Shown here piece by piece: positions 711 through 54,200 of a stretch of 64,000 bases of DNA. The position numbers were made by a program, and so were the translations under genes. Below the pieces are notes generated by a model. It was not told where the DNA came from and made no database searches. It worked only from the letters and a program-made list of their open reading frames with translations. Numbering within the stretch: the stretch's first letter is position 1; each line of letters begins with the position of its first letter. Source of the DNA: a virus (taxonomy: Duplodnaviria > Heunggongvirae > Uroviricota > Caudoviricetes); IMG/VR virus record IMGVR_UViG_3300037466_002980, positions 170,811-234,810 of that record; one strand, written 5' to 3'.

Positions 711-799
711 TGGCGGAAAGTATAGGATTCGAACCTATGCATCCATTTTCTGAACGACAGTTTAGCAAACTGCTGCCTTAACCACTCGGCCAACTTTCC
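711..799 (-). tRNA. tRNA-Ser(GCT)
   Basis: Cloverleaf; anticodon arm GCAGT-TT GCT AA-ACTGT; long variable arm; GTTCGAATC; encoded CCA. Confidence 0.95.
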
Positions 800-802
800 A
801 AA

Positions 803-1102
803 TTAATTGTTATCCGATTTAGCAATTGCGCTCATAAGACATAATGCATTTATTCGCAATTCTTTTGTTTTTCTATTATCGGGATTTCCAAATACACCCT
901 TAACGAGCGTGTTCTTATTTAATTGATTTTGAAACAAATATGCAATTGCCAGCGATTCCGGATCATTATAATCAAAAAATTTCATTGACATTTGCTTCTT
1001 ATGTTTTAACATGTAAATGGCATGACAAGCATACCTTGCTTTATTGGAAAATACCAATTCGGCTGCTTTTCTATATAATTCACTTTGTTTCATATCTATC
1101 AA
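803..1102 (-). CDS. hypothetical protein
   Basis: 99-aa ORF filling the gap between tRNAs, just downstream of a sigma70-like promoter. Confidence 0.6.
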   Translation of the reverse strand: MIDMKQSELYRKAAELVFSNKARYACHAIYMLKHKKQMSMKFFDYNDPESLAIAYLFQNQLNKNTLVKGVFGNPDNRKTKELRINALCLMSAIAKSDNN

Positions 1103-1115
1103 TATTTGAATCTAT

Positions 1116-1144
1116 ATTATACCGTCTTAAATTTGAAATAGCAA
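1116..1144 (-). promoter_or_regulatory. sigma70-like promoter
   Basis: TTGCTA-17 nt-TATAAT. Confidence 0.7.
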
Positions 1145-1146
1145 TT

Positions 1147-1221
1147 TGGCAAGGGCTGATGTATTCGAAACATCTACAATCACGCTCAGAACGTGACGCG
1201 TCGCCATTCCGCCTAGCCCCA
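1147..1221 (-). tRNA. tRNA-Gln(CTG)
   Basis: TCACG-TT CTG AG-CGTGA; G73; CCA. Confidence 0.85.
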
Positions 1222-1230
1222 ATAAATCTA

Positions 1231-1305
1231 TGGACCCGCTTAGAGGAATCAAACCTCTATCTTAAGTTTCGAAGACTTTTATATTATTCATTATACGAAA
1301 GCGGG
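1231..1305 (-). tRNA. tRNA-Arg(TCG)
   Basis: Acceptor CCCGCTT/AAGCGGG; loop CT TCG AA; CCA; AT-rich D arm. Confidence 0.8.
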
Positions 1306-1312
1306 AAAAATC

Positions 1313-1388
1313 TGGTGGAACACATGGGAGTCGAACCCACCTAATCTACCTTATGAGAGTAGTGCATCAGCCGCTCTGCCAATGTTCC
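1313..1388 (-). tRNA. tRNA-Met (elongator) or Ile2 (CAT)
   Basis: CTACT-CT CAT AA-GGTAG; G1-C72 paired, so not an initiator; CCA. Confidence 0.9.
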
Positions 1389-1393
1389 GAAAA

Positions 1394-1444
1394 CAGGTTA
1401 CGTTTCTTTTTACCAAAATAGAATTAAATTGCCGAATGTAACCT
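1394..1444 (-). ncRNA. C(A/G)GCA-helix RNA, minimal copy
   Basis: AGGTTAC/GTAACCT-G helix; ATTCGGCAA motif; internal hairpin with loop TT GGT AA; same frame as the 3577 and 7249 copies. Confidence 0.6.
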
Positions 1445-1450
1445 TTAAAA

Positions 1451-1526
1451 TGGTGCTGCCTCGTGGAATCGAACCACGTTCACATGCTCTTCAGGCACGC
1501 GCTATGACCACATCAGCTAAAGCAGC
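1451..1526 (-). tRNA. tRNA-Phe(GAA)
   Basis: CGTGC-CT GAA GA-GCATG; CCA. Confidence 0.95.
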
Positions 1527-1527
1527 A

Positions 1528-1797
1528 TTAATCTTTAAAGACATGTATTTCTTCTCTTTTCTTCTTTAATTTAACTTCTTGTTCATCATAATGATGTTCG
1601 AGATAAAGAATTAAACCTTCGTCAAACGTCCAATTATTTTGTTTACAGAAATTACTAAACATTAGGAAATCTTTTGAATATGCTTCCGGCACATAAATTT
1701 TTGATTGTTTTAGTAATTCTAAAAATTCAGTTGGCGGAGTTCTTTTAAGATGACGGAAAACTTTCTCATCTGCATTATTTGAACCATTCTGGAACAT
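1528..1797 (-). CDS. hypothetical protein
   Basis: Track ORF 1528..1881; start reassigned to ATG 1797, which has a GGAAGG SD and a short overlap with the upstream gene. Confidence 0.55.
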   Translation of the reverse strand: MFQNGSNNADEKVFRHLKRTPPTEFLELLKQSKIYVPEAYSKDFLMFSNFCKQNNWTFDEGLILYLEHHYDEQEVKLKKKREEIHVFKD

Positions 1798-2236
1798 CTC
1801 TTTCCTTCCACGATGCAATTTCTTGCTTATATTTTTTATAATAATTTCTATAACTTTGAATAGGATCATCTGTCTTAACATCCCCCGGCATTGCTAATCT
1901 AAAAGGTGTTTTACCGATTGCAGGCAATGCAGGAACAGGTAATATTTGAATAACATCAAATGCCTTATGATTGATAGATTTCTTATATCTATATTGATAT
2001 TCTTTATTTAATTCTGTTGCTAAATCTCTTAACCATAACCAATTATCAAGTGATTCCCTAACCCAAATTGCACTAGGATGATTTTTATGTGTTATCTTGT
2101 AACCTATATCATTTCCCGATAATCTAACTGCTGTACTCAATAATTGAGCATATTCGGTAATCATCTTCACTACATGTTTATCTACATGGTAGGTTGCATT
2201 TAGATAATGATTATTGTCTAAATAAAAAATATTCAT
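1775..2236 (-). CDS. pyrimidine-dimer DNA glycosylase (DenV/Pyr_excise)-like protein
   Basis: MNIFYLD...HVVKMITEYAQLLS...THKNHPSAIWVR motifs of this phage family. Confidence 0.7.
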   Translation of the reverse strand: MNIFYLDNNHYLNATYHVDKHVVKMITEYAQLLSTAVRLSGNDIGYKITHKNHPSAIWVRESLDNWLWLRDLATELNKEYQYRYKKSINHKAFDVIQILPVPALPAIGKTPFRLAMPGDVKTDDPIQSYRNYYKKYKQEIASWKERDVPEWFK

Positions 2237-2430
2237 TCTATGTCTTTAGGACTAACTAAAATCCATCTAACATTTCCGGATGAATCTGAAAATTCTAATT
2301 CAATGCCATATTCGTTAATCTCCGAAATGGATCCTTCAACGCAATCAGAAACTAATTTCTTAATTGCAATTTGATCTTCTTCGGGAAGTCCATTAAGCAA
2401 CTCCGGCGATGCTTGTTTTAGTTTTACCAT
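2233..2430 (-). CDS. hypothetical protein
   Basis: Track start lies inside tRNA-Gly; start moved to ATG 2430 (MVKLKQ). Confidence 0.55.
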   Translation of the reverse strand: MVKLKQASPELLNGLPEEDQIAIKKLVSDCVEGSISEINEYGIELEFSDSSGNVRWILVSPKDIE

Positions 2431-2446
2431 ATGTACTTGATTAATT

Positions 2447-2520
2447 TGGAGCGGGTAACGAGAATCGAACTCGTACGATAACCATGGCAAGGTCACAGGC
2501 AACCATTACATCATACCCGC
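2447..2520 (-). tRNA. tRNA-Gly(GCC)
   Basis: TGACC-TT GCC AT-GGTTA; U73; CCA. Confidence 0.95.
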
Positions 2521-2521
2521 A

Positions 2522-2761
2522 TTATTCTACTAATTTGTTTACTTCTTCGAAACTAATCTCTTGTAATGTTCTTTCGTTTAACCCTCGTCTGGGGTTAGAA
2601 CACATCCAACAACTACATGGTTTTGGTGTATCTACAACCATTCCGAGTTGCCTTCCCGGATCTAACTCATTATTAATATGGTGCAAATCTTTACCCCAAT
2701 AGAAACGACGTTTTTTCTTTAATCTTTCTATATGAGCTCTTCTTTCAGATCTATCTCTCAT
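2522..2761 (-). CDS. small basic protein with CxCxxC motif
   Basis: AGGAG SD; TPKPCSCWMCSNPRR. Confidence 0.75.
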   Translation of the reverse strand: MRDRSERRAHIERLKKKRRFYWGKDLHHINNELDPGRQLGMVVDTPKPCSCWMCSNPRRGLNERTLQEISFEEVNKLVE

Positions 2762-2771
2762 ATTATTCTCC

Positions 2772-2862
2772 TGGAGGAAGAAGGACGTATCGAACGCCTA
2801 CCGAAAAATATCGATACCTCTGTTTTCGAAACAGCGATGGGGACCTCCCCACAACATCTTCC
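2772..2862 (-). tRNA. tRNA-Ser(CGA) with Sec-like, (8/4)-type fold
   Basis: Acceptor GGAAGATG/CTTCTTCC; 6-bp D stem with 4-nt loop; loop TT CGA AA; long V arm; 4-bp T stem; CCA. Confidence 0.75.
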
Positions 2863-2871
2863 GATAAAATC

Positions 2872-2945
2872 TGGTAGGTCATGACAGAATCGAACTGCCG
2901 TCATTGCCTTGTAAAAGCAAGGTTCTCCCATTAAACTAATGACCC
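2872..2945 (-). tRNA. tRNA-Val(TAC)
   Basis: TTGCT-TT TAC AA-GGCAA; CCA. Confidence 0.95.
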
Positions 2946-2960
2946 AATTTAATACTGTTT

Positions 2961-2989
2961 ATTCTAAATTATTTCAGAATGATTGTCAA
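2961..2989 (-). promoter_or_regulatory. sigma70-like promoter inside the tRNA array
   Basis: TTGACA-17 nt-TAGAAT. Confidence 0.75.
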
Positions 2990-2990
2990 G

Positions 2991-3067
2991 TGGTACCCCT
3001 GGTAAGATTCGAACCTACAACCAACAACTTTTGAGGATGTCCGCACTACCAATTAGCGTACAGGGGC
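2991..3067 (-). tRNA. tRNA-Leu(CAA), short variable arm
   Basis: Loop CT CAA AA; A73; CCA. Confidence 0.85.
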
Positions 3068-3076
3068 ATTTTTATT

Positions 3077-3164
3077 TGGAGTGCCGTACTGGATTCTAAC
3101 CAGTGTGGGATTTTAATCCATCAGTTTTGCAGACTGCTGCCTTCGTACGCTCGACCAACGGCAC
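3077..3164 (-). tRNA. tRNA-Cys(GCA), long variable arm
   Basis: Loop CT GCA AA; U73; V-arm hairpin GGATT-AA-AATCC; CCA. Confidence 0.85.
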
Positions 3165-3170
3165 ATTATT

Positions 3171-3264
3171 TGGTGGGTGTTGTGGGTTATCGAACCACGA
3201 CCCCTATTATCCATATTCACTGGTAGTGATAGATAACAGTGCTCTCCCTCTGAGCTAAACTCCC
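3171..3264 (-). ncRNA. tRNA-like RNA with an extended anticodon arm
   Basis: Normal acceptor, D arm and CCA; anticodon arm is 10 bp + 3-nt bulge + 5 bp with an ACC tip. Confidence 0.7.
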
Positions 3265-3268
3265 AATA

Positions 3269-3472
3269 TTAGAATAAAATTCTATATCTATATTGAATTC
3301 CACCTCGAATATATATTGCACTTGATGAACTCTTATCCTTTTGATAATTTCCATCATTTGTTATAGTAGGAAATAGATCCGAGGTAAGATAAAATTTACC
3401 GTGTTCGAATTGCATTGAAGAACATCCGGTAGATAGTACACCGAACAGTACAATAGATAATAGGCGTTTCAT
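3269..3472 (-). CDS. putative lipoprotein
   Basis: MKRLLSIVLFGVLSTG-C lipobox-like signal; start moved out of tRNA-His. Confidence 0.6.
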   Translation of the reverse strand: MKRLLSIVLFGVLSTGCSSMQFEHGKFYLTSDLFPTITNDGNYQKDKSSSSAIYIRGGIQYRYRILF

Positions 3473-3488
3473 TACATTATTTATTATC

Positions 3489-3564
3489 TGGGCGGTCATT
3501 ACGGTTACGATCCGTTCTTACCTGTTTCACAGACAGGGGTGGTAGCCACTCCACTAAATGCCGC
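3489..3564 (-). tRNA. tRNA-His(GTG)
   Basis: CCTGT-CT GTG AA-ACAGG; G-1/C73; atypical acceptor and T stem; CCA. Confidence 0.85.
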
Positions 3565-3576
3565 ATAAATTCAAAA

Positions 3577-3697
3577 CAGGTTCGCATTTTTTAAGTTCTA
3601 CCGCTAAACTAATGTGGCGACCAACTCACATCCGGGATTCGAACCCGGGCCTTCCTTTTACAATAAAGATATAATTTAAATTTGCTGAAACGAACCT
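3577..3697 (-). ncRNA. circularly permuted tRNA-like RNA closed by the CAGCA helix (Y/YrlA-like architecture)
   Basis: AGGTTCG...CGAACCT-G closing helix; order is anticodon arm, T arm, loop-closed acceptor, D arm. Confidence 0.75.
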
Positions 3698-3702
3698 AAT
3701 GG

Positions 3703-4122
3703 TCAATTCTTTTTTAATTCCTCAATCAATTCTTCTACATTGTAGAATACACCACTGGCAAATTGATACATGACATCCCAACGTTCGGGATTGTCTAATA
3801 GGATATAACCAGGTTTTCCACAACCGATAACGTATCCTAATTCTAAATGTGCAGATTTTCCTGCAGGTAATGCTAGAACTGCGATATCATTTCTGTCAAG
3901 GTGAAATTTATCGAAATTATAGACATGCTTCGCTGCATATCCTTGTAGAGCAGTTTTGTAATCATGCCCCTTTGCTTTCTCGTGATCTCTCCAACAGTCA
4001 TCTGCATTCTCGGAAGCTGACCACCAATCATCAAATACTTCGTGTCCTGCATTTCGCAATTTATTAGCGATATTAACAATTTCTGTATTTCTTAATGAAC
4101 CGATTAAATAAATGTTTGCCAT
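3703..4122 (-). CDS. nucleoside 2-deoxyribosyltransferase-like (NDT/TIR-like fold) protein
   Basis: IYLIGS...GHEVFDDW...D...LPAGKSAHLELGY pattern. Confidence 0.7.
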   Translation of the reverse strand: MANIYLIGSLRNTEIVNIANKLRNAGHEVFDDWWSASENADDCWRDHEKAKGHDYKTALQGYAAKHVYNFDKFHLDRNDIAVLALPAGKSAHLELGYVIGCGKPGYILLDNPERWDVMYQFASGVFYNVEELIEELKKN

Positions 4123-4130
4123 AATGTAAT

Positions 4131-4159
4131 ACTTTAAAACAAATACTTATTTAATGCAA
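4131..4159 (-). promoter_or_regulatory. sigma70-like promoter, probably giving a near-leaderless mRNA for 4122
   Basis: TTGCAT-17 nt-TAAAGT; the -10 box is 8 nt before the ATG. Confidence 0.55.
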
Positions 4160-4279
4160 GATTCTTCATTTAGAATTACGAACATATTCAATATATTGTT
4201 AGAAATTCTGTGATGGGGTTCACTTACGCCGGTACAATCCGGTTCCCATAACCCTCTGGGTAAACATAACAATATAATC

Positions 4280-4357
4280 TGGTACCCAAGGTGGGATTCG
4301 AACCCACACTGTACGGTTTCTAAAACCGGTGTCTCCTGCCAATTGCACTACTTGGGC
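4280..4357 (-). tRNA. tRNA-Leu(TAG), short variable arm
   Basis: CCGGT-TT TAG AA-ACCGT; CCA. Confidence 0.9.
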
Positions 4358-4423
4358 ATAAGGAATAGTAACAGATTCGTTCACATACGGCTCCCGCCTC
4401 CACTGTATATTCCTGTAAAATAT

Positions 4424-4510
4424 TTCAAATAGAATGGTTGTAGTGGACTCGAACCACCTCTCCCGCTTGAATGGCGAGTATCCTGCCCCTAGACGAACAA
4501 CATATTTGAA
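4424..4510 (-). ncRNA. aberrant tRNA-Glu-like RNA
   Basis: D, anticodon (CA TTC AA) and T arms intact; acceptor irregular and extended by TTCAAATA/TATTTGAA. Confidence 0.6.
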
Positions 4511-4636
4511 TTCTTAAGTATGATTACTCATACTGTCCATTGTCACTTCATTGACCTACTTTGATTGTGTTCCTTGCCATCGGTCGACGTTCGTTTCGCG
4601 ACTCAGTTGGAAATAGACTAGCCATACTTAAGAAAT

Positions 4637-4710
4637 TGGCATCCCGGGAAGGACTCGAACCCTCACAAACAGTTTTGGAGACTGTGGTGCTGCCATTACA
4701 CTACCGAGAT
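4637..4710 (-). tRNA. tRNA-Trp(CCA)
   Basis: ACAGT-CT CCA AA-ACTGT; G73; CCA. Confidence 0.95.
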
Positions 4711-4716
4711 AAAAAT

Positions 4717-4792
4717 TGGCTCCGGTGACTGGGATCGAACCAATGACCAACGGATTAACAATCCGCCGCTCTACCTACTGAGCTACACCGGA
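4717..4792 (-). tRNA. tRNA-Asn(GTT)
   Basis: GCGGA-TT GTT AA-TCCGT; CCA. Confidence 0.95.
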
Positions 4793-5296
4793 ATAAAAAC
4801 ATATTCTTTCAAATATTTCTATTGCATTTTCTTTTAAAATCCATTCTCCTGATTCATTTGTTATATTTGGATGTTGAAGTATTTGTTTTTCAACATCCTT
4901 TCTATTAAGAACAAAATCATATTTTTCAATCTTAAATCTTCGAAATGGATCATATGTCTGATATTGATTTAATCTTGTATTTAAATCAAGAGTCATTCCG
5001 ATTTTGTAATGATCTTGATATATCGGATTAGAAATTATATATACCAATCCAGAATCGATATCGTTAAATTTTGCACCATATTGATAATTAACCTTCAATA
5101 ATGTTAATCCGGCTAATCGTCTTGCAAATCTATATTGATTTTTTCTTATTAAACCTTTATTTTTCTTATTAAATATTTTTCCATATATTTTTATATATTC
5201 ATTAAGAATATTATCATTTATTTGAAATATATCTTTAGGAATCACAGAATTCGCTATCATTTCGTCGATAACAATTCTCTCAAATTCCTTCAACAT
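4775..5296 (-). CDS. T5orf172/GIY-YIG family nuclease
   Basis: GLVYII...YKIGMT..L..RL.QYQT.DP motif. Confidence 0.8.
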   Translation of the reverse strand: MLKEFERIVIDEMIANSVIPKDIFQINDNILNEYIKIYGKIFNKKNKGLIRKNQYRFARRLAGLTLLKVNYQYGAKFNDIDSGLVYIISNPIYQDHYKIGMTLDLNTRLNQYQTYDPFRRFKIEKYDFVLNRKDVEKQILQHPNITNESGEWILKENAIEIFERICFYSGVAQ

Positions 5297-5602
5297 TTAA
5301 ACCTTACCTTTTAGAAAATTTGCTGTATCATCTTCATCGATTTCACTGTAGACAGGAATATCTGGATCTCTTCTTCCACCTAACCAACGATATATTTTTG
5401 TCTGATAGAGTGAACTTTTACTTAAAGCAGCATCTAATGCTATTTTATGTCCATCTCTCATAATTTCGATTTTTCGATTACCACTATCATTTTCATAACA
5501 ATGAATATAATACTCCGTAGTATAATATCCATTTGATACCTTATGATTAAATGTTTTTACATGAACAAATTTTTCTTTTTTCTTAAACCAAGGAAAAATC
5601 AT
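5297..5602 (-). CDS. hypothetical protein, paralog of 5599..5919
   Basis: Shared C-terminus RW.GR.DPDIP.Y.EIDE.DTAN.LKGKV. Confidence 0.75.
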   Translation of the reverse strand: MIFPWFKKKEKFVHVKTFNHKVSNGYYTTEYYIHCYENDSGNRKIEIMRDGHKIALDAALSKSSLYQTKIYRWLGGRRDPDIPVYSEIDEDDTANFLKGKV

Positions 5603-5919
5603 ACCTTACCTTTCAGATAATTAGCAGTATCCTCTTCATCAATTTCATCATATTGTGGAATATCGGGATCTTTTCTTCCCAATTCCCACCGTCTAATTTT
5701 TTCATGATATATGGTTCGTTGATTTGCAATATATGCAAGATCTACTTTCTTTTCGTACGTCGAAGAAAATTCAACCTGTCTGTTATCTTTATTAGATTGA
5801 AGTAAATTATAGTAAAAGGTAATATCAACTTCACCATCATGTGTGTTGAGTTTAAAATTTTCAGAAATTATTTTTACTAATTTCCATTTTTCTTTTTCAA
5901 ATCTTTTAAATATCGACAT
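5599..5919 (-). CDS. hypothetical protein, paralog of 5297..5602
   Basis: Shared C-terminus; ATGA stop/start overlap. Confidence 0.75.
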   Translation of the reverse strand: MSIFKRFEKEKWKLVKIISENFKLNTHDGEVDITFYYNLLQSNKDNRQVEFSSTYEKKVDLAYIANQRTIYHEKIRRWELGRKDPDIPQYDEIDEEDTANYLKGKV

Positions 5920-5924
5920 ATTTT

Positions 5925-5998
5925 TGGTGCGGGTACCGGGAATCGAACTCGAGACTTCTGTTTGGAAGACAAATGTTATACCACTTAACTATACACGC
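5925..5998 (-). tRNA. tRNA-Gly(TCC)
   Basis: TTTGT-CT TCC AA-ACAGA; CCA. Confidence 0.9.
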
Positions 5999-6329
5999 AT
6001 TAATTTAGAATGTCAACTATGATTAATTTGCTTTCTTTCGCCACCTATTCCGTCGAAACGGTTTGGACTTACACCATGCTGATAGGCTATTGCATTATTG
6101 CCGGAAGAATTTGAACCATTATCCTGAGCGAAATACTCTGTCGATAGTAATCAGCTATCCTAGCAAATCAAAAAATAATTATAGTCACATGGAAGATTTG
6201 ATATCATGGCGTCCCAAGTATCATCACATTACCACTTACGTCTTCACTATGTAGAACTTCTCCAACACGTAGAGCTTCACACATAGGAGTAGAACCATAT
6301 GACTCACTAGGAGCTACCTAATAGAAAAC

Positions 6330-6452
6330 TGGTCTCGCCTGAGGGAATCGAACCCCCTCCTCTCCCTTCTGATGGAATTGAAATTTAGTGCTGAACGAAT
6401 TCTTAGACAGAATTGCTTTCGTTTAGCGTGCTAGCCGTTACACCAAGGCGAA
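6330..6452 (-). ncRNA. CCA-ended tRNA-like RNA with the CAGCA helix inserted in the anticodon stem
   Basis: Acceptor TTCGCCT/AGGCGAG-A-CCA; normal D and T arms; about 45-50 nt insertion containing AATTCTG-TCTA-AGAATT-CGTTCAGCAC. Confidence 0.75.
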
Positions 6453-6532
6453 AAATATGGCAGGCCCTCATGAATCCGAGTATAAGGTTTTGGACATCAT
6501 AGTGACATCGGGAGCGCCTATAAAATCATTAC

Positions 6533-6608
6533 TGGTAGGGGCACTGGGACTCGAACCCAAGAACTCACGGTTTAAGAGACCGGTACGTTACCATTACGCC
6601 ATACCCCC
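6533..6608 (-). tRNA. tRNA-Lys(CTT)
   Basis: CCGGT-CT CTT AA-ACCGT; CCA. Confidence 0.95.
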
Positions 6609-6610
6609 AA

Positions 6611-6671
6611 ATCGAAATAGCGGCTTTCAAGACCGGTTTCAATAAATTTTGCAAATTTAATATATTTCGAT
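6611..6671 (-). ncRNA. small three-way-junction RNA bearing two anticodon-like arms
   Basis: ATCGAAATA/TATTTCGAT closes TAAAT-TT GCA AA-ATTTA and CGGT-CT TGA AA-GCCG. Confidence 0.55.
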
Positions 6672-6678
6672 CAAAAAT

Positions 6679-6757
6679 TGGCGTCCCTACGGGGATTCGA
6701 ACCCACGCTTTTTACCTTGAAAGGGTAACGTCCTCAAACCATATAGACGATAGAGAC
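6679..6757 (-). tRNA. tRNA-Glu(TTC)
   Basis: TTACC-CT TTC AA-GGTAA; G73; CCA. Confidence 0.92.
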
Positions 6758-6768
6758 AAGAAAAATAT

Positions 6769-6843
6769 TGGCATCCCGTAGGGGTTTCGATCCTTCTCAT
6801 TAGTTTGAAGGACTAACGGCCACGGCCAGCTGCCTCACGGGAT
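6769..6843 (-). tRNA. atypical tRNA with loop CCTTCAA (TTC with C33); identity uncertain
   Basis: Acceptor ATCCCGT/ACGGGAT-G-CCA; TTAGT/ACTAA stem; T loop ATCGAAA. Confidence 0.6.
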
Positions 6844-6844
6844 A

Positions 6845-7144
6845 TTAAGGAATATAATCGAAAGGTCTATGATACTGATCTTTTCGATTATCCATATAAT
6901 TCATTATAAAAATTTGTGGAATTATGTGCATTCCTGGATCAAGTCGAAGTTTGAAAAATTCTAAACAGTCGTTCTCTTTTAATTCAACCTCAAAAATATT
7001 TCCATCAAAAATTCTAGCCAGAGAGTTATATCGAAATTCTATTTTCTTAACACCTAATCTTATTCTTGTTTTTTCGTAATCCGGCCAGTCATCGGCGGGA
7101 TAATTAACCGAAATTTCAATACCGATATATAAAATTCTAGACAT
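6845..7144 (-). CDS. hypothetical protein
   Basis: 99-aa ORF exactly filling the gap between tRNAs. Confidence 0.65.
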   Translation of the reverse strand: MSRILYIGIEISVNYPADDWPDYEKTRIRLGVKKIEFRYNSLARIFDGNIFEVELKENDCLEFFKLRLDPGMHIIPQIFIMNYMDNRKDQYHRPFDYIP

Positions 7145-7158
7145 GGTTGAATTATTAA

Positions 7159-7233
7159 TGGTGCTCCCGAAAGGAATCGAACCTTACGTCTTCGCGTTAT
7201 CAGCACGCTGCTCTGCCATTGAGCTACAGGAGC
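7159..7233 (-). tRNA. tRNA-Ile(GAT)
   Basis: Loop CT GAT AA; CCA. Confidence 0.92.
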
Positions 7234-7248
7234 AAAATTAAAATAGGA

Positions 7249-7385
7249 CAGGATCACTTTTTACGTTGCTCTACCAAACTGAGCTATTGCTTCGTTAAAT
7301 GTAACAAAAATACACTTAACGAAGCAAGTGGGATTTGAACCCACGACCTACGGCTTGACATGCTAATGATTGCTGCAGGGATCCT
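7249..7385 (-). ncRNA. circularly permuted tRNA-like RNA closed by the CAGCA helix (Y/YrlA-like architecture)
   Basis: AGGATC...GATCCT-G helix; T arm GTGGG-TTCAAAT-CCCAC precedes a loop-closed 12-bp acceptor and D arm GCTC-AGTTTGGTA-GAGC. Confidence 0.8.
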
Positions 7386-7393
7386 TTAAAAAC

Positions 7394-7468
7394 TGGTCAG
7401 GGAGCACAGAATCGAACTGTGTCTACGAGGCTCCAAAGCTCGGCGGCTAACCATTACCATACACCCTG
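7394..7468 (-). tRNA. tRNA-Pro(TGG)
   Basis: C1-G72; loop TT TGG AG; CCA. Confidence 0.92.
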
Positions 7469-7565
7469 AAAAACTTTGGTAGATTATATACGCCATCATA
7501 CCGGGGCAATTATCTAATGTAATAATGCAGATTGGAATAGGAAGTCTTTCTATATTACATCTAAC

Positions 7566-7643
7566 TGGAGCTCCCAGAAGGAATCAAACCTTCATCCACG
7601 GACTACAAAACCGTTATAATCTAATCCATTATACTATAGGAGC
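7566..7643 (-). tRNA. tRNA-Thr(TGT)
   Basis: Loop TT TGT AG; acceptor GCTCCTA/TGGGAGC; CCA. Confidence 0.85.
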
Positions 7644-7650
7644 AAAAAGT

Positions 7651-7726
7651 TGGCGCCGCCAAGGAGGATCGAACTCCTACTACAACCGTGACAGGGTCGC
7701 GTGCAGTACCACTACACTATGGCGGC
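7651..7726 (-). tRNA. tRNA-Asp(GTC)
   Basis: CGACC-CT GTC AC-GGTTG; G73; CCA. Confidence 0.95.
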
Positions 7727-7902
7727 AAATTGGTCTAGGTATCCAGTATATTTCTATAGTAACCAGGTAACCCAGATGAAATTAGACAAGCTTCACACTT
7801 GATTGAACGTTCCATTCGCTTACTGCAACGTCTAAGCTTCGCTCGGTTTCTCTCGCGCCTTTAACATTCTAGCAAGCGCGGCTATGTACACAGAGAGAAA
7901 TT

Positions 7903-7978
7903 TGGTGGACCAGGAGGGAATCGAACCCTACTTACAATTTCCTTGCAAGGGAAACCAGTAACCCCATTACTCAAGCCC
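7903..7978 (-). tRNA. tRNA-Ala(TGC)
   Basis: TTTCC-CT TGC AA-GGAAA; G3.U70 pair; atypical D arm; CCA. Confidence 0.85.
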
Positions 7979-7985
7979 ATAATTC

Positions 7986-8070
7986 TGGTGGAGTAGCTAG
8001 GAATCGAACCTAGATGATCAGTGATGACAGTTTTACAGACTGCCCCGCCTCCATAACGGTCTACTACTCC
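7986..8070 (-). tRNA. tRNA-Tyr(GTA), first tRNA of the array
   Basis: GCAGT-CT GTA AA-ACTGT; long V arm; CCA. Confidence 0.92.
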
Positions 8071-8902: not shown

Positions 8903-9559
8903 ATGAATAATTTCTATGTGTATGCTTATATCCGAAGTAAAGATAGCAAAACTGCGAAAGCAGGCACACCATATTATATTGGAAAAGGAACTGAAAATCG
9001 AAGGTTTCGAAAACATGTCAACATATCAATACCTAACAAAAATTTTATTCTTATAATTGAAAATGATCTTACTGAAATTGGTGCATTAGCTATAGAACGT
9101 AGATTAATTAAATGGTGGGGAAGAAAGAATACAGGAACAGGCATTCTTCTAAATAGAACAGATGGTGGTGAAGGAATCTCTGGTTATAAGCATACAGAAA
9201 ATGCTAAAAATAGAATCGGTCAGGCATCTATAGGCAGAAATAAGGGACCAAAAATACTCTCAAACGAAACAAAAAGAAAAATATCGACTTCATTGAAAGG
9301 AAAGAAAAAGCCACCAAGGACAAAAGAACATGCTTTGAAAATATCAGAAGCACTCAAAGGAAAAATTTGCAATGACCTCGAAATTGAACAACTAAACAAA
9401 ATGGTTGAAAAAATTAAGGTTCCTGTTCAAATCTTCGGAAAACAATATTCATCGATAACCGAAGCATCCTTGGCCTTAAATATACATCATGAAACGATAA
9501 GATATAGATTAAAATCCAAAAATTATCCAGAATATATACAAGAGAAAAAAAATGCCTAG
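8903..9559 (+). CDS. GIY-YIG homing endonuclease with NUMOD3-like repeats
   Basis: FYVYAY...[17 protein letters not shown], KRKISxSLKG repeats. Confidence 0.9.
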   Translation: MNNFYVYAYIRSKDSKTAKAGTPYYIGKGTENRRFRKHVNISIPNKNFILIIENDLTEIGALAIERRLIKWWGRKNTGTGILLNRTDGGEGISGYKHTENAKNRIGQASIGRNKGPKILSNETKRKISTSLKGKKKPPRTKEHALKISEALKGKICNDLEIEQLNKMVEKIKVPVQIFGKQYSSITEASLALNIHHETIRYRLKSKNYPEYIQEKKNA

Positions 9560-48244: not shown

Positions 48245-51200
48245 ATGGCGAATTATATAAATCGTTTACCTGCAGTATTTCAGACCACGACTGAAAAGAA
48301 ATTTTTTGATGCTACTTTTGATCAAGTCTTTTCAAAGAAAGATAGTGATTTATTAGCGGGATATCTCGGAAGAAGAGATCCTGGCGAATATAATCCTATT
48401 TCTGATTTCTACATACCAGAACCAACTAAAAATAGAACTTGGTGGCAATTAGAATCAACTGCATATTCTCTTGATACTTCGGGAAATAAATCAAATATCT
48501 TTTTCTATGAAGATCTATTGAATAAAATTCAATCCCTTGGTGGAAATATTCTAAACCAAGATAGATTATTTGAATCTAAGTTTTATAGTTTCGGTCCTCC
48601 AATCGATTATGATATGTTTATTAACTATCAAAATTATTATTGGATAGATCAATATCTTCCAACAATTGAAATTACTGGGGTAACTGCTTCGTCGATTATT
48701 GGACAACCAATATTTACTACACCGAATACTGCAACACCTCCGGGATTAACATTATCGACAGGAATGGTAATTTCGTTGCTCGATGACCCCGATTATTCTT
48801 CGCCACACCTTGTAGAAAACTTCGGTGGTTGCACTGGAATTCAGTTAGTACCTAAATTTCCAGATTTCATTGCAGGAACTATCTTTGAAAATCTACCATG
48901 GGACGGAGAGATCGAACTCTCTACTGGAAGAATTATCGATAATAGATTCTGGGATGCAACTACCTGGGATACAGAAACACAGCCAGGAACAGGAGATTAT
49001 ATCACCATTGAACGTGGTGCACGAGATAGAAATGCATGGTCAAGAACTAATAAATGGTTCCATATTGATGTAATCAATAAAGTATCAGAATTAACCGGAA
49101 CTTCGTTTCCATCGAATGCAACAAGAGCTCTTCGACCAATTATTCAGTTTATCGCTGATTTAGTTTTATATAAATCTGGAACTCAATTTAGAGATGAAAT
49201 TGATTACGGTTTCAGAGATAACGGAATCGGCAATCCTTTATTGTTTACTGATTTTAATGGAAAATTAGCTGCAACATTAAACAGCACCTATGGTATTAAT
49301 ATTGTCAATGGAACTTCGGTTGTATTTTTCAACGATACAACACAGATTACCGAAGATATACATCCATGGGATACCTTTAATTGGGACACTGTTTCCTGGG
49401 ATTCTGGTAATATTGAAACTATAAATCAATTTATTTTTATTGCTTCAATTGATAATAGCGGATTTGTTACATTTTCTCCAAAGACATCTTATCTAACACC
49501 TATCGTTGAAGGCGATATTGTTTTTATTGATGCAGACGCACCGTATAATGGTGCATTAAGAGGCGAAACATGGTATTACAGTAATGGTACATGGCAAGAA
49601 GCATTCAACGATAAAATTTCTATAAATCAACCACCGTTGTTCCAATTGTATGATCATAATAGTATTCCTTTAGATGATTCTACTGCTTATCCCGGAAGTA
49701 ATTTTGAAGGTAATAAAATATTTTCATATAAGGTAGATACAACTCCTGGCGCTACAGTTGATCCTGTTTTAGGATTTCCTATTATCTATACATCTTTAGG
49801 ACAATCGTCAGATATTATTTTTCAAAATAATTTGATTACTGATAGATATATCTATAACAATTTTAAAAATATAGATGGTTACTATTACTACAAGAAATCT
49901 ACTAAACCGGTTCTTTATAATAGTTGGAACTTATATGATTTATGTGATTGTCCTACAATTATTCCAACACCACCATGTAACTGTATCGAAACAAGTAAAC
50001 AGCGAGTTATTGACAAATATGTTGTGGGTTTTGGATCGCAATATCAATTTAAATTGAGTGCAACACCTGTTGGATATCCTGGAACTTCAACGCATTCTCC
50101 TGATATCATTGTAATTGTTAATGGCATCGAAGTTAAGAGTTCTTCCGAACAAACAGATGGTTATGGATTTGTGGTAGTCAATGATACTGTTTATGTTGAC
50201 CTAAGTATATATCTAACCAATTTATTACTTACACAGCAGAAACAACCACCTGTTGTTGAAATCCAAACATATACACGTGATGAATTAGATCCAGCTGCAA
50301 GCGGTTATTTTCAGATCCCACAACAACTAGAAGCAAATCCGTCTCAATTAGAAGTTGCTGAAATCAGCGGCAGTAATTTGATTCAACACTTTACTTCGAT
50401 AATCTCTAATCAAATTGGATTCACCGGAACTGCTTTTGGTGGAAGCAATAATTATCGAGATTCGAGAAAAAATAGATCCATCGGATCTTACATTCTTCAG
50501 AATGTAGCACCAATTTTAAAATCAATGCTTGTATCTTCAACTGACGATTTAGATTTCATCACAGCTGAGCGTTTTAGTCAGGATGAATATACAAAATTTA
50601 AAAACAAATATATTTCTACCTCGGCACAACTAATTAATCAAAGCTTTAATCCAGTTCAATATCATACTAATTCTATTTCGATAACATATTGGGTAGATGA
50701 AATTATTAAGAGATTGAATATTTCGAAAGAATTTTCGGATGCATTTGCATATTCTTATATGATTGCAACCGGAACCCCCACCTTTACAGAATCTCATACT
50801 GTAGCCGGAAACTCCACTGTTCTACTTGATAATTATATCGATTTATCCGATCCGAAGAATATTCTATATGTCTACGAAGATAATGGTTCTACTACAGAAT
50901 TACTTGTTATCGGTCAAGATTATGATATTATTTCTACAAACTTATCAATTGAAGTTGAATTAAAGAAAGGATCGTCTGTTGGTACATTTGTGTTTTATTT
51001 GTATCAAAATCCATTACCGACATATATTCCATCAACACCGACTAAATTAGGGTTGTATAATGCATACATTCCGAGAAAAGAACTAGATACATCATATGCT
51101 ATTCCTACATATGTTATTATTGGACACGATGGTTCTAAAACTATTGCATATGGCGATTATAGGGACGAGTTATTACTTGATTTAGAAATACGAATTTACA

Positions 51201-54200
51201 ATAATATTCAAGAAACATTTAGAAATGAATATGTTCCTTCGGCTAGTTTAGTAACAGTCAAATCTGGTTATTTCAGAAAAACTCGTTATTCAGTAAATGA
51301 TTATTTAGATATTACAGAATCTTATCTAAATAAATGGTCCGCTAAGAATAGAGTAAATTACAGAATTAATGACTGGCCTACAGCAAGTACGGTCACACCA
51401 GTCAATGAACTTTGGAAACTCTATAACTATAGAAATGCGGTCGATACCTATGGCAATTCCCTAAACCTACCAGGAAACTGGAAGGGAATCTATCAATTCT
51501 ATTATGATACCTATAATCCAAATACACGTCCTTGGGAAATGCTTGGATTCAGTGAACAACCATCATGGTGGATTGTTGAATACGGAGTTCCAACGATAAA
51601 TGGATTAGGGGAATTATCGTGGACATCTACAAGTGCTGGATTACACCAAATGTGGCAGGACCTCGAAGATGGAATTATTCGACAAGGACCACGTGCTGTA
51701 TATGATCCGATAACATTAAACCCAGTCTCTATTCATGAATACGCTAGACCAGGACTTTTATCAATAATTCCAGTTGATGCATCTGGTAATCTTATTCCAG
51801 TTCCTACATTATTCAATGTAGCAATGTCTGGAAATAATTATGCACCATTTGATGGATTTGATGAAGATTGGATTTATGGTGATGGCGGACCTGTTGAACA
51901 GGCATGGATGAGTACATCTGGTTATGCCTTCAGTGTACAAGAATTTATTTTCCTAACAAGACCGGGTCCTTTTGGAGAATATAGTTGGGATACACTCGGA
52001 ACAAGTGTATCTCCTGGTACGTTTACTATTCCCGGAATCGAAGGACCGGTACAATCATTATTGAATTGGCAATATGTTCAAAATGATTTATATTCCAGTA
52101 CTGATACATTCTTCGCATGGATGAGACCAAAGAATAAAGATCAAAATGTGCATGCCGAGACAATCGACGGTATTATTCAAGTTCGTTTCGGATATCAAGC
52201 ATGGATTAGCGATAGACTATTATTCCTTGGAAAAGATATAACTGATAATTTTGGTCAGAAAGTTAGAACATTAGATGTTAACCTGGCAAACAAATTAGCT
52301 GGATTTACAAATAAAGACACCACAACCAATTATATCGAATCTGTAACTCCGGGTGCAACCACAAATACCTTAGCAATTCCATCAATTGATTTCCAGGTTA
52401 TTTTACACAAAGGACCACCAGTAAAAACCTATGCATATAGCGGGGTAATTATTCGTGCATTATCTGATGGAGCATTTGCAGTATATGGTTATGATCTTTT
52501 GAATTCTGAATTTATAATTCAGGATCGAAGTAATAATCAATTAATTGATGTTACTGTTGGTGCAACACCAGCTGAATTTAGATATTTCAATGTTGGTGAT
52601 ACCTATAATGTCGGTGATATTGTTAGATACAATGGTGTTTATTATCAAAGTTTAATAACCCAAACAGTGACTTCTTTTGTATCAACAAACTGGAAAAAAT
52701 TACCTGGATTACCAAATATCGGTGGTATATCAGTAAGCTATAAGCCAATTTCAGCTTCGACTACAACTAAGATTCCTTACGGCTATGTAATGTCTACGGT
52801 ACAAGAAGTTTTTGATTTCTTGATCGGTTGGGGTGCATGGCTCGAATCTCAAGGCTGGCAGTTTGAAAATGTAAATCAAGACACCGCACAGGTTGAAGAT
52901 TGGTTGTTTTCTGCAAAACAATTCTTATTCTGGTTAAATTCAAGTTGGGCACCCGATGCATCTATTCAGTTAAGTCCGATTGCCAATTCTGCTACATTAA
53001 TTGTAGATACCGGATATCCAGATGATGTAGAAACCTTAAATAATGGTGTATATAGTATTCTAGACAAATATGGAGTAGCAATAGCTCCTAATAATACAAC
53101 AATAGATCGAGATGGAAAGAGTATCACTGTTTCTCCAAATGATGTATCTGTTGGTGGAATCTATTTCTTACAGGTAACCGCCTCCGAAACAGAACATATA
53201 TTAATTTTCAACAATACCACAAGTTTCAATGATATTGTTTATTCTCCATTGTTAAGAGCAAGACAACAGCGTCTACGTTTCAACGGTTTTAGGAGCAATG
53301 GTTGGTACGGAAAAATGGAAGCACCTGGTTATCTAGTTATTGATAATCAACTAGTTCCTAACTATGATACTATTGTCGATAATATGAGATATTATTACGA
53401 TCCTAATCTGGTTATTGATAATCCAAGTTTAGAAGAACTCGGAAGACACCTTATTGGTTATGAAAATAAGAGTTATCTTGATAATCTCCAGGTCTCTGAT
53501 AATATTCAATATCTTTTCTATCAGGGTTCTATTAGACAGAAAGGTACCAAACAGGCTCTAGAAAAGTTATTTAGATCAACTAAAATTCAAATTAATGAAA
53601 TTATAGAAATCTATGAAGAATGGGCATTAAAACTTGGAAACTTTGGAAATACAATTGAACAAGTATCTACGGAATTTAAACTTACACCTGAGCAGAATTC
53701 GGGCGAAGTAATTGTTTCGAGATTAAATTTTGTTCCGTCGTCGATTGGTTTTGTAAAAGAAATCCGTATTCTAAATGCTCAAAACATATACACGTCTTTA
53801 CCAGTAATATCAATTGCGGCGCCAGATGCAACACCAGATGTTCCTTGGACTGTTTTCTCTCCGAGTGCCACTTATGCAATTGGTGATGTTGTGAAACATA
53901 ATGACACACAAGGAAATGCGGTATATTATTCAAGCAATGTTGCACAAGGACCAAGTTCCTTTAATTCAAGTAATTGGACGATTATCTTACAAACAAGGCA
54001 GGCAACTGCTTATGCTGTATTAGATACAACGGGTGTGATTACTCGCGTTGATATAGTAGATCCAGGTTATGGTTATCTATCAGCACCGGCTGTTAAGATA
54101 TTGGTAAGCAACGTTGAAGTGGTGCACGATAAACTTTATAGTGTATGGCAAGGAGATATTGTTAAAGACACTACACTTGATAATATTATCGATATCGATA

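What the first reader, a model, noticed from the sequence alone, without database searches (positions are those of the whole stretch)
6330..6452. One tRNA-derived RNA family in three topologies; this copy keeps its CCA end
Seen: normal acceptor (TTCGCCT/AGGCGAG-ACCA), D arm and T arm, but the 5' strand of the anticodon stem is split (CT ... TCC-AT CAG AA-GGGAG). The insert reads A-rich-AATTCTG-TCTA-AGAATT-CGTTCAGCAC-linker. It is the same module that forms the ends of the RNAs at 3577, 7249 and 1394 (AG[G/A]NNN helix, C[A/G]GCA motif, linker ... A-rich, helix, G), but here a loop closes the helix. So 6330 and 3577/7249 are circular permutations of one two-domain RNA. All three full copies have an unusual AT-NNN-AA anticodon-like loop (CAG, TGT, GTC). 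Inference: a protein-binding helix grafted onto tRNA scaffolds with varied anticodons, possibly nuclease decoys or tRNA-repair/Ro60 adaptors. This copy could be aminoacylated.
Basis: partly seen in the sequence, partly recalled or inferred. Interest (0 to 1): 0.85.

Follow-up and report, generated by a model that had tools for sequence, protein, structure and literature searches.

The report
Phage tRNA carrying a Y-RNA handle
A giant soil phage encodes a complete, CCA-ended tRNA-shaped RNA with a conserved hairpin "handle" built into its anticodon stem. The same handle forms the ends of neighbouring scrambled tRNA-like RNAs and lies in front of the phage's Ro60-like ring-protein gene, so the RNA is most likely a tRNA-shaped partner of an undescribed phage version of the Ro60/Y-RNA particle.

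Summary
Window 6330-6452 (minus strand) is a 123-nt cloverleaf with a 7-bp acceptor stem, D arm, T arm and encoded ACCA. A 48-nt insert splits the 5' strand of its anticodon stem between nt 28 and 29.

The insert reads: A-rich linker, helix ending CU, G-N-N-A-type loop, helix starting AG, CGUUCAGCA, linker. The same module forms the paired ends of the RNAs at 3577-3697, 7249-7385 and 1394-1444, and of four more copies upstream in the genome. So the closed and open forms are true circular permutations.

I collected 18 distinct homologues from related jumbo phages. They keep the fold with heavy covariation and 17 keep CCA, but the anticodon changes freely.

The phage has no Pfam TROVE gene. It does encode a DUF2828/DUF7788 protein whose confident model matches only Ro60 structures. 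That gene has two handle copies in its leader and sits beside an Rnl2-type RNA ligase.

Best reading (about 0.55): the handle is retained and the RNA is a tRNA-bodied Y-like RNA. The main rival is an excisable insert (0.2). No RNA data were available to decide. This scan has reported the same kind of RNA on other phage DNA; I found no published description in the held paper library.

The parts
6330..6452 (-). Whole 123-nt handle-tRNA: cloverleaf with a 48-nt handle insert and an encoded ACCA end
   Evidence: sequence. Model R1 scores it 137.5 bits. Covariation.
6446..6452 (-). Acceptor stem, 5' strand (RNA nt 1-7, UUCGCCU). It pairs with 6334-6340.
   Evidence: In the two covariation sets, 5 of 7 and 6 of 7 acceptor pairs show double changes.
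6428..6443 (-). D arm (nt 10-25), with G18 G19 and A14, A21 invariant
6425..6426 (-). Upper two base pairs of the split anticodon stem (C27 U28), pairing with A42 G43 at 6362-6363
   Evidence: Fully compensatory among homologues: CU/AG changes to AC/GU; further pair types.
6415..6424 (-). A-rich 5' linker of the handle (nt 29-38, AAACGAAAGC)
   Evidence: It equals the A-rich run before the 3' strand in the open copies.
6398..6414 (-). Handle hairpin: AAUUCU, loop GUCUA, AGAAUU. The terminal C-G and U-A pairs and the loop G...A are invariant.
   Evidence: The loop is G-N-N-A in 16 of the 18 distinct homologues and GUCUA here.
6389..6397 (-). Invariant single-stranded box CGUUCAGCA (CAGCA motif)
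   Evidence: zero entropy at 8 of 9 positions. The same box follows the 5' strand in every open copy.
6377..6388 (-). AU-rich 3' linker between the CAGCA box and the lower anticodon stem
   Evidence: variable in sequence and length.
6362..6376 (-). Lower anticodon stem and loop: UCC, AU-CAG-AA, GGGAG. Anticodon CAG lies at 6369-6371.
   Evidence: Among homologues the anticodon is hypervariable and the loop flanks are invariant.
6341..6357 (-). T arm with loop UUCGAUU
6330..6340 (-). Acceptor 3' strand AGGCGAG, discriminator A and CCA
   Evidence: CCA is kept in 17 of 18 distinct homologues.
3577..3697 (-). Circularly permuted copy. Order: handle 5' strand AGGUUCG, UUUCAGCA, anticodon-like hairpin (AU-UGU-AA), T arm, loop-closed acceptor stem, D arm, A-rich run, CGAACCU-G.
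   Evidence: Four orthologues are 100% paired.
7249..7385 (-). Second permuted copy (handle AGGAUC/GAUCCU-G, loop AU-GUC-AA, 17-bp closed acceptor helix). Its tRNA-like core matches Rfam YrlA below threshold.
   Evidence: RF02553: 39.5 bits, gathering score 69, model positions 23-87. RNAfold z = -7.0.
1394..1444 (-). Handle-only mini RNA (AGGUUAC, AUUCGGCA ... A-rich, GUAACCU-G)
   Evidence: Weak Rfam Dicty_Class_I_RNA match, 23.9 bits.

Best explanation
The RNA at 6330-6452 is a tRNA-bodied Y-like RNA. It is probably cut out of the long minus-strand tRNA transcript by the usual tRNA end-processing enzymes (inferred). It folds as a normal L-shaped tRNA with a free CCA end.

From the 5' strand of its anticodon stem, a tethered 'handle' sticks out: a 5-6 bp helix whose end is always C-G/U-A, capped here by a G...A loop, and flanked by an A-rich strand and the single-stranded box CGUUCAGCA.

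The handle is the docking site for the phage's Ro60-like ring protein (DUF2828/DUF7788-vWA) (inferred). The tRNA half is the adaptor that brings this protein to enzymes that recognise tRNAs (inferred).

The neighbouring RNAs at 3577 and 7249 are the same two-domain particle with the chain ends moved to the handle and the acceptor stem closed (the YrlA topology). The RNA at 1394 is the handle alone.

Shown here:
- the architecture and its conservation and covariation
- the circular-permutation relation between closed and open forms
- co-occurrence with the Ro60-like gene, and handle copies in that gene's leader
- the Ro60 fold of the protein

Inferred, not shown:
- binding of the handle by the protein
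- retention of the handle in the mature RNA
- the downstream partner (RNA repair, surveillance or counter-defence)
For: 1. Structure. 18 distinct homologues keep the cloverleaf, the split stem and the handle helix. About 94-95% of cells are paired, 16-20 of 27 pairs show double changes, and 0 of 500 shuffles do as well.

2. Handle features. The CGUUCAGCA box, the terminal CU/AG pairs and the loop G...A are invariant, while the rest of the helix covaries.

3. Same handle, same attachment point. The handle is joined to tRNA-like bodies at the D arm/anticodon stem junction in RNAs that cannot be tRNA precursors, because their acceptor stem is closed, conserved and covarying. It also occurs alone. 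The handle-plus-tRNA geometry is therefore itself under selection.

4. Link to the protein.
- Two handle modules lie between the promoter-like TTGACA and the start codon of the DUF2828/DUF7788 gene.
- Up to five modules lie in tandem before the same gene in relatives.
- Handles flank the gene in two of four distant homologue contexts examined.

5. Fold of the protein. The AF2 model has pLDDT 92.6. The top 13 Foldseek PDB hits are all Ro60/TROVE, with TM up to 0.63 and E as low as 1e-7; the next hits are vWA-only at E of 0.01 or worse. A profile search of PDB sequences also ranks TROVE/Ro60 first, at E 0.02.

6. Co-occurrence. All 5 complete or near-complete genomes that carry a closed handle-tRNA encode this protein.

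7. Precedents.
- The 7249 core matches Rfam YrlA.
- M. smegmatis YrlA is cut by RNase P in its acceptor-like stem, gains CCA and stays Rsr-bound (PMC4201824). A CCA-ended Y RNA therefore has a precedent.

8. Not an ordinary decoder.
- A32...A38 loops are very rare in the phages' own tRNAs.
- The anticodon duplicates ordinary tRNAs in G001 and G002.
- The body is no close paralogue of the ordinary tRNA with the same anticodon.

9. Repair context. An Rnl2-type ligase gene lies about 1.5 kb from the Ro60-like gene, and RtcB is present.
Against: - No binding or expression data exist. No RNA run was available, so retention of the handle is unproven.
- The Ro60-like gene lies about 32 kb from this RNA, not within the 4 kb typical of YrlA.
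- The handle lacks the GNCGAA / GGUCCGA motif of known Ro60 ligands.
- With the insert removed, 7 of 8 homologues are textbook tRNAs.
- The discriminator base tends to follow the anticodon (G73 with GUC/CUC, A73 otherwise; p = 0.013, not corrected for relatedness). This is what one expects of RNAs that are really charged, and it fits an excisable insert equally well.
Confidence: 0.55

Rival explanations
1. The insert is an excisable, intron-like element. A phage or host nuclease cuts at the base of the handle, a ligase (RtcB or the Rnl2-type enzyme) joins nt 28 to 29, and the mature product is an ordinary decoding tRNA. The Ro60-like protein might be part of this processing machine.
For: - In-silico removal gives canonical 74-75-nt tRNAs in 7 of 8 homologues.
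- The anticodon stem covaries across the insertion.
- CCA is retained.
- The discriminator tends to track the anticodon.
- RtcB and an Rnl2-type ligase are encoded.
- CAG is absent from the ordinary tRNA set of this genome.
Against: - No tRNA-splicing endonuclease is present (PF01974).
- The junctions do not form a bulge-helix-bulge motif (inspection).
- 48 nt is far too short for a group I intron, and no intron or ribozyme family matched.
- The same handle occurs at RNA termini, alone, and in an mRNA leader, where there is nothing to splice.
- Permuted copies keep the same handle-body geometry but have closed, conserved acceptor stems.
- A32/A38 loops are atypical for decoders.
- The anticodon is redundant in G001 and G002.
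Confidence: 0.2
2. The handle is a real conserved RNA element, but its ligand is not the DUF2828 protein. It could be a processing or stability signal for the polycistronic tRNA transcript, or a site for a host protein. The link to the Ro60-like gene would then be regulatory or coincidental.
For: - The modules sit between tRNAs, with short spacers and U-rich 3' flanks.
- The handle motif differs from known Ro60-binding motifs (PMC4201824).
- It resembles Dictyostelium Class I RNAs, whose known direct binder is an RRM protein (PMC7919456).
Against: - Handle copies recur directly at the DUF2828 gene in this clade and in distant homologue contexts.
- Gene and handle-tRNA co-occur in 5 of 5 complete or near-complete genomes.
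- A handle buried inside a tRNA as a closed hairpin is not at a processing site.
Confidence: 0.15
3. It is a decaying tRNA gene disrupted by insertion of a repeated or mobile module, with no function of its own.
For: - One homologue (L099:6312-6432) has a broken acceptor stem, and its tandem neighbour has lost most of the CAGCA box.
- The anticodon drifts.
Against: - There is one copy per complete genome, and it is orthologous.
- 27 base pairs are maintained by compensatory changes in at least 18 distinct sequences.
- CCA, T loop, D loop, U33, A37 and A38 are invariant or nearly so.
- Helix sequences differ between copies but stay complementary, which argues against recent transposition.
Confidence: 0.05

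Closest known systems
YrlA-type Y RNAs with Ro60/Rsr (Rfam RF02553; Chen et al. 2014, PMC4201824)
   Same: - Two-domain RNA: a protein-binding stem formed by the chain ends plus a tRNA-like domain (T arm, closed acceptor-like stem, D arm).
- Encoded with a Ro60-fold ring protein and RNA-repair ligases.
- Found in phages too.
- The 7249 core matches the model at 39.5 bits.
- M. smegmatis YrlA even acquires an open, CCA-ended acceptor stem through RNase P cleavage.
   Different: - The protein is DUF2828/DUF7788, not Pfam TROVE.
- The handle carries a CAGCA box instead of GNCGAA.
- The RNAs are scattered in a tRNA array up to about 32 kb from the gene.
- An anticodon hairpin is retained.
- In the 6330 form the handle is an internal capped hairpin and the CCA end is genomically encoded.
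Dictyostelium Class I RNAs (Rfam RF01414; Kjellin et al. 2021, PMC7919456)
   Same: - A short terminal stem joins the 5' and 3' ends.
- A conserved motif lies right after the 5' strand, followed by a variable middle and a 3' CUGU.
- Length is about 50-65 nt.
- The phage mini handles score 23.9-34.4 bits over the full model.
   Different: - All scores are below the gathering score (41.5).
- Class I RNAs are eukaryotic, reported as restricted to dictyostelids, and bound by an RRM protein.
- No tRNA cargo or closed topology is known for them.
- Homology is not established.
Permuted and intron-containing tRNA genes of archaea and red algae (own knowledge; reviewed in PMC3400036, listed, not read)
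   Same: - The 3' half precedes the 5' half in the 3577 and 7249 genes.
- Non-canonical insert position in the anticodon stem of 6330.
- An RtcB ligase is encoded.
   Different: - No bulge-helix-bulge motif and no EndA.
- The acceptor stems of the permuted copies are closed by conserved loops or long helices without CCA, so they are not evident precursors of mature tRNAs.
Stable non-tRNA species of phage tRNA clusters (T4 species 1 and 2 RNAs; own knowledge, not checked here)
   Same: Small stable RNAs co-transcribed with phage tRNAs, with tRNA-like ends and unknown function.
   Different: No sequence or motif comparison was made here. No CAGCA handle or Ro60-like partner is known to me for T4.

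Membership tests
YrlA / bacterial Y RNA (RF02553) | Reaches the Rfam gathering score (69 bits) | tested here: not met
   The 6330 RNA gives no hit at E up to 5. The 7249 RNA scores 39.5 bits over model positions 23-87 only.
YrlA / bacterial Y RNA (RF02553) | tRNA-like domain with T arm, loop-closed acceptor-like stem and D arm, with chain ends in the protein-binding stem | tested here: not met
   Met by 3577 and 7249. In 6330 the topology is inverted: the acceptor stem is open with CCA and the handle is closed.
YrlA / bacterial Y RNA (RF02553) | GNCGAAN0-1G motif near the 5' end (PMC4201824) | tested here: not met
   The conserved box is (C)GUUCAGCA / UUACAGCA. No GNCGAA is present in any copy.
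YrlA / bacterial Y RNA (RF02553) | Encoded within about 4 kb of a TROVE/Ro60 gene on the same strand | tested here: not met
   There is no PF05731 hit. The Ro60-fold DUF2828 gene is on the same strand but about 32 kb away. Other handle copies do lie in its leader.
YrlA / bacterial Y RNA (RF02553) | Bound by Ro60/Rsr in vivo | not testable with these tools
   Needs RIP or EMSA.
Canonical elongator tRNA (RF00005) | 7-bp acceptor stem, D and T arms with conserved tertiary nucleotides, 3' CCA | tested here: met
   U8, A14, G18G19, A21, the UUCGAUU loop and CCA are invariant.
Canonical elongator tRNA (RF00005) | Continuous anticodon stem with a 7-nt loop Y32-U33-NNN-R37; detected by tRNA finders | tested here: not met
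   The stem is interrupted by 48 nt. ARAGORN (with and without the intron option) and Rfam tRNA miss it in the window. The G003 orthologue just reaches 29.4 bits. A32 is present in 6 of the first 8 homologues.
Canonical elongator tRNA (RF00005) | Aminoacylated and used in decoding | not testable with these tools
   Indirect hints only: CCA is kept and the discriminator tends to follow the anticodon. The anticodon is redundant in G001 and G002.
tRNA with protein-spliced (BHB) or group I intron | Bulge-helix-bulge motif at the junctions with an EndA endonuclease, or a group I ribozyme core | tested here: not met
   No PF01974 hit. No BHB by inspection. The insert is 48 nt, and no intron or ribozyme family matched.
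Dictyostelium Class I RNA (RF01414) | Reaches the gathering score (41.5 bits); terminal stem plus an 11-nt motif after the 5' strand | tested here: inconclusive
   The open mini copies score 23.9-34.4 bits over the full model length. The architecture is shared, but scores are sub-threshold and the 6330 copy is permuted.
Ro60 / TROVE protein (for the presumed partner) | HEAT-repeat ring plus vWA/MIDAS domain | tested here: met
   AF2 pLDDT 92.6 and pTM 0.91. Foldseek top 13 hits are all Ro60/TROVE over about 520-590 aligned columns. The D-x-S-x-S MIDAS motif is invariant in 138 homologues. Pfam TROVE itself is not matched.

The most novel reading that the evidence does not exclude
The handle-tRNA is charged like a real tRNA, and its fast-changing anticodon sets which tRNA-specific enzyme it engages. 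The enzyme could be a synthetase or a host anticodon nuclease. The RNA would then act as a programmable, anticodon-addressed adaptor or decoy. It would recruit the phage's Ro60-like ring and the nearby RNA ligases to exactly the tRNA species the host attacks, with the anticodon evolving in an arms race.
Probability: 0.15. Interest if true: 0.9.

Novelty: new variant of a known kind. Interest (0 to 1): 0.72.

Why it matters
Ro60/Y-RNA particles are known from animals, some bacteria and mycobacteriophages. Their RNA partners were defined around TROVE genes and a GNCGAA motif.

This work points to a large second branch. More than 6,000 protein clusters at 50% identity match the DUF2828/DUF7788 protein at E of 0.001 or better. 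The branch appears to have its own RNA handle, which phages attach to interchangeable cargos.

The 6330 form is the most telling cargo: a full tRNA with a free CCA end. It would physically couple a Ro60-like ring to the tRNA world of charging, repair and nuclease attack, and it gives a simple, testable entry point (one RNA, one protein).

It also shows that tRNA finders miss a conserved class of phage tRNA-shaped genes. And it gives the orphan Class I RNAs of Dictyostelium a possible relative.

Tried and rejected
- **Expression:** no RNA holder was listed for this stretch. Expression and splicing remain untested.
- **Known phages:** megablast against deposited phages found only ordinary tRNA matches.
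- **Pfam TROVE:** no hit in the genome.
- **Protein model:** single-sequence AlphaFold of the DUF2828 protein was useless (pLDDT 33.7). It was replaced by a 138-sequence alignment.
- **Regex scans for the handle:** loose scans were very noisy. Enrichment of helix-flanked CAGCAA in the tRNA region was only moderate (p from 0.0004 to 0.16). True copies were picked by the full grammar and by clustering.
- **Gap-filling idea (the anticodon supplies a missing tRNA):** rejected. CAU and GAU are already present two or three times in G001 and G002.
- **Recent insertion of the handle into the ordinary tRNA with the same anticodon:** rejected. The best identity to any ordinary tRNA is 0.66-0.71, and that tRNA does not share the anticodon.
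- **BHB or group I intron:** rejected.
- **Own promoter or terminator:** none above chance.
- **RNase P-like RNA in this genome:** none.
- **Handle pairing GCU with AGC of CAGCA, as in the RNAfold MFE:** not conserved in L129.
- **ARAGORN intron mode:** does not detect any homologue.

Full report
**Setting.** The window is G000:C1:170811-234810 of a 362,810-bp phage record with direct terminal repeats. The phage is a jumbo myovirus by its portal, major head, sheath and baseplate proteins. Its DNA is held mainly by soil and rhizosphere DNA runs. The genome has 36% G+C and 45 ARAGORN tRNAs. These include an amber-suppressor type, and there is also a permuted tmRNA. Twenty-two tRNAs lie on the minus strand of window 711-8067.

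**The object.** Read on the minus strand, 6330-6452 is 123 nt:
- acceptor UUCGCCU/AGGCGAG
- U8
- D arm GUGU-AACGGCUA-GCAC
- G26
- C27 U28
- a 48-nt insert
- U-C-C
- loop AU-CAG-AA
- GGGAG
- a 4-nt variable loop
- T arm GGGGG-UUCGAUU-CCCUC
- discriminator A and CCA

The insert reads AAACGAAAGC, AAUUCU, GUCUA, AGAAUU, CGUUCAGCA, CUAAAUUUCAAU.

ARAGORN and Rfam tRNA do not call the RNA, even with ARAGORN's intron option. If alignment columns 29-76 are removed in silico, ARAGORN calls a 75-nt tRNA with anticodon CAG, and likewise for 7 of 8 homologues.

**The module elsewhere in the genome.** The grammar is: AG-helix of 6-7 bp, 2-4 nt, C(A/G/C)GCA ... A-rich run, complementary strand ending CU, then G. 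In the genome's tRNA/Ro60-like-gene region (about 145-178 kb, minus strand) it recurs, besides the closed copy inside 6330-6452, at:
- window 1394-1444
- window 3577-3697
- window 7249-7385
- four more places upstream of the window: genome 145358-145402, 145414-145508, 166875-166939 and 166953-167048

All copies are on the minus strand.

In 3577 and 7249 the module's two strands are the ends of the RNA. The interior reads: linker, anticodon-like hairpin (AU-UGU-AA or AU-GUC-AA), variable loop, T arm, loop-closed acceptor stem, D arm. Going round the circle, the order of elements is identical to 6330. So the closed and open forms are circular permutations.

At the sequence level, cross-order alignments of the halves give z of 1.3-7.7. 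Same-order controls give z of -1.1 to 0.4.

The conserved G after CU and the A before AG in the open copies become the first and last loop nucleotides of the closed copies. That loop is G-N-N-A in 16 of the 18 distinct homologues and GUCUA here.

**Conservation.** The major capsid protein has 287 relatives in IMG/VR. A covariance model built from three orthologues (R1) found exactly one closed handle-tRNA in each of four complete genomes, G000 to G003. A pattern scan of IMG/VR followed by R1 gave more. In all there are 18 distinct sequences.

Pair counts:
- first set of 8: 94.4% paired, 16 of 27 pairs with changes on both sides, 0 of 500 shuffles as good, slid controls 43-54%
- second set of 12 distinct sequences: 94.6% paired, 20 of 27 pairs

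The two base pairs above the insertion switch CU/AG to AC/GU (plus GG/CC, UU/AA and AU/AG variants). The handle helix has three covarying pairs and two invariant terminal pairs.

The permuted 3577 RNA has orthologues in G002, G003 and L129. All of its pairs are kept, and 5 of 6 closed-acceptor pairs covary.

Invariant unpaired nucleotides are CGU(U/A)CAGCA, G37, U33, A37, A38, the T loop, G18G19 and CCA.

**The anticodon.** Among the 18 sequences the anticodon reads GUC (6), CAU (4), UAC (2), and GAU, CAG, CAC, UCU, GAC and CUC once each. Its column entropies (1.1-1.5 bits) equal those of the freest linker positions, while its neighbours are invariant.
- A32 with A38 is present in 6 of the first 8 homologues, against A32 in 2 of 191 ordinary tRNAs of G000-G003 (p about 1e-8).
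- The anticodon does not fill gaps. CAG is absent from G000's ordinary set, but CAU (three copies) and GAU (two copies) are already present in G001 and G002.
- The body is not a close paralogue of any ordinary tRNA; the best identity is 0.66-0.71, and it is not to the tRNA with the same anticodon.
- G73 goes with GUC/CUC in 5 of 7 sequences and A73 with the others in 10 of 11 (p = 0.013, not corrected for relatedness). This is a hint that synthetase identity rules may still matter.

**The likely protein partner.** Pfam TROVE is absent.
- With a 138-sequence alignment, AlphaFold gives pLDDT 92.6 and pTM 0.91.
- Foldseek's 13 best PDB matches are all Ro60/TROVE: Xenopus, human, Deinococcus Rsr and Thermus phage phiLo. 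TM is up to 0.63 and E ranges from 1e-7 to 2e-5. After them come only vWA domains at E of 0.01 or worse.
- A profile search of PDB sequences also ranks TROVE/Ro60 first (E 0.02).
- The family is very large: 6,209 clusters at 50% identity with E of 0.001 or better.

The gene's 5' leader holds two handle modules: AGAUUAG-UUA-CAGCA...CUAAUCU-G, and AGAAUCA-UUU-CCGCA...UGAUUCU-G, the latter ending at the ribosome-binding site. G002 and G003 have three to five modules in the same place, some with permuted tRNA-like cargo. Of four distant homologues examined (42-44% identity), two have a perfect 7-bp handle with UUCAGCA within about 130 nt of the gene.

All five complete or near-complete genomes with a closed handle-tRNA have the gene. 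An Rnl2-type RNA ligase gene lies about 1.5 kb from it, and RtcB is encoded elsewhere. There is no tRNA-splicing endonuclease and no CCA-adding enzyme.

**Comparison with what is known.**
- Rfam YrlA matches the T arm, closed acceptor and D arm core of 7249 at 39.5 bits. That is below the 69-bit cutoff and covers none of the Ro-binding part of the model.
- YrlA is defined by a GNCGAA motif, a tRNA-like domain and proximity to a TROVE gene (PMC4201824). The motif and the proximity are not met here.
- M. smegmatis YrlA is cleaved by RNase P in its 7-bp acceptor-like stem, receives CCA, and both halves stay Rsr-bound. The 6330 topology encodes that state directly in one chain.
- The handle-only copies hit Rfam's Dictyostelium Class I RNA model over its full length at 23.9-34.4 bits against a cutoff of 41.5. 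They share its published architecture: terminal stem, motif after the 5' strand, 3' CUGU (PMC7919456).
- A comparative study of jumbo phages notes TROVE proteins in a few of them but no partner RNAs (PMC7824862).
- 'DUF2828' occurs in five unrelated papers.
- This scan's earlier notes report the same handle, the same protein and closed handle-tRNAs in other phages. I re-tested the main points on this genome.

**Reading.** The same handle, tethered at the same point of a tRNA-like body, is kept in a topology that cannot mature into a tRNA. It is also kept alone, and in the leader of the Ro60-like gene. The simplest account is therefore that the handle is a retained protein-docking element, and that 6330 is a tRNA-bodied Y-like RNA with a free CCA end.

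The main open alternative is that the handle is cut out to give an ordinary tRNA. It cannot be excluded without RNA data. The clean tRNA obtained by in-silico excision and the discriminator trend keep it alive. The transcript is probably polycistronic, since no promoter or terminator above chance lies nearby.

**Verdict.** This is a new variant of the Ro60/Y-RNA kind. The function of the particle is unknown.

Noticed in passing
G000:C1:160426-160939 (minus strand; about 10 kb before the window start; locus L169/L170): ARAGORN calls a permuted (two-piece type) tmRNA with tag AANDAVFALAA in this phage.
   Followed up: no
G000:C1:157384-157460 (minus strand; outside the window): ARAGORN calls a tRNA with anticodon CUA (amber-suppressor type, labelled Pyl). 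One such tRNA is present in each of the four complete relatives. Weak full-length YrlA-model hits (19.3 and 14.2 bits) overlap this spot.
   Followed up: no
L215:10279-10621 (+), i.e. G003: There is a full-length but weak match to Rfam archaeal RNase P RNA (27.8 bits, gathering score 84, E 8.6e-5) inside the tRNA array of a relative. Nothing comparable was found in G000.
   Followed up: partly
window 6458-6532 (minus strand): Between tRNA-Lys(CUU) and the handle-tRNA lies a roughly 65-nt stretch that can pair its ends and finishes in GCCA, spaced like a tRNA gene but without a cloverleaf. Another first-reader note lists three such CCA-ended hairpins.
   Followed up: no
L099:6195-6432 (minus strand): One relative carries two closed handle-tRNAs in tandem. 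One has a broken acceptor stem. The other has lost most of the CAGCA box (CC...GCA) and has a shortened hairpin loop. This may be decay after duplication.
   Followed up: partly
window 4775-5296 (-) and 8903-9559 (+): A T5orf172/MUG113-domain ORF lies inside the tRNA array, and a NUMOD1/NUMOD3 homing-endonuclease-like ORF lies at its edge.
   Followed up: no
window 2991-3067, 4280-4357 (minus strand): The tRNAs called Leu(CAA) and Leu(UAG) are only 77-78 nt, too short for the long variable arm usual in bacterial tRNA-Leu.
   Followed up: no
G002:C1:129122-129334, G003:C1:50058-50274, G001:C1:241241-241465: Some handle RNAs carry a roughly 200-nt structured cargo of unknown kind, conserved between G002 and G003 and placed just before the Ro60-like gene.
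   Followed up: no
window 48245-59050 (+): A single 3,601-aa ORF lies among the virion genes.
   Followed up: no
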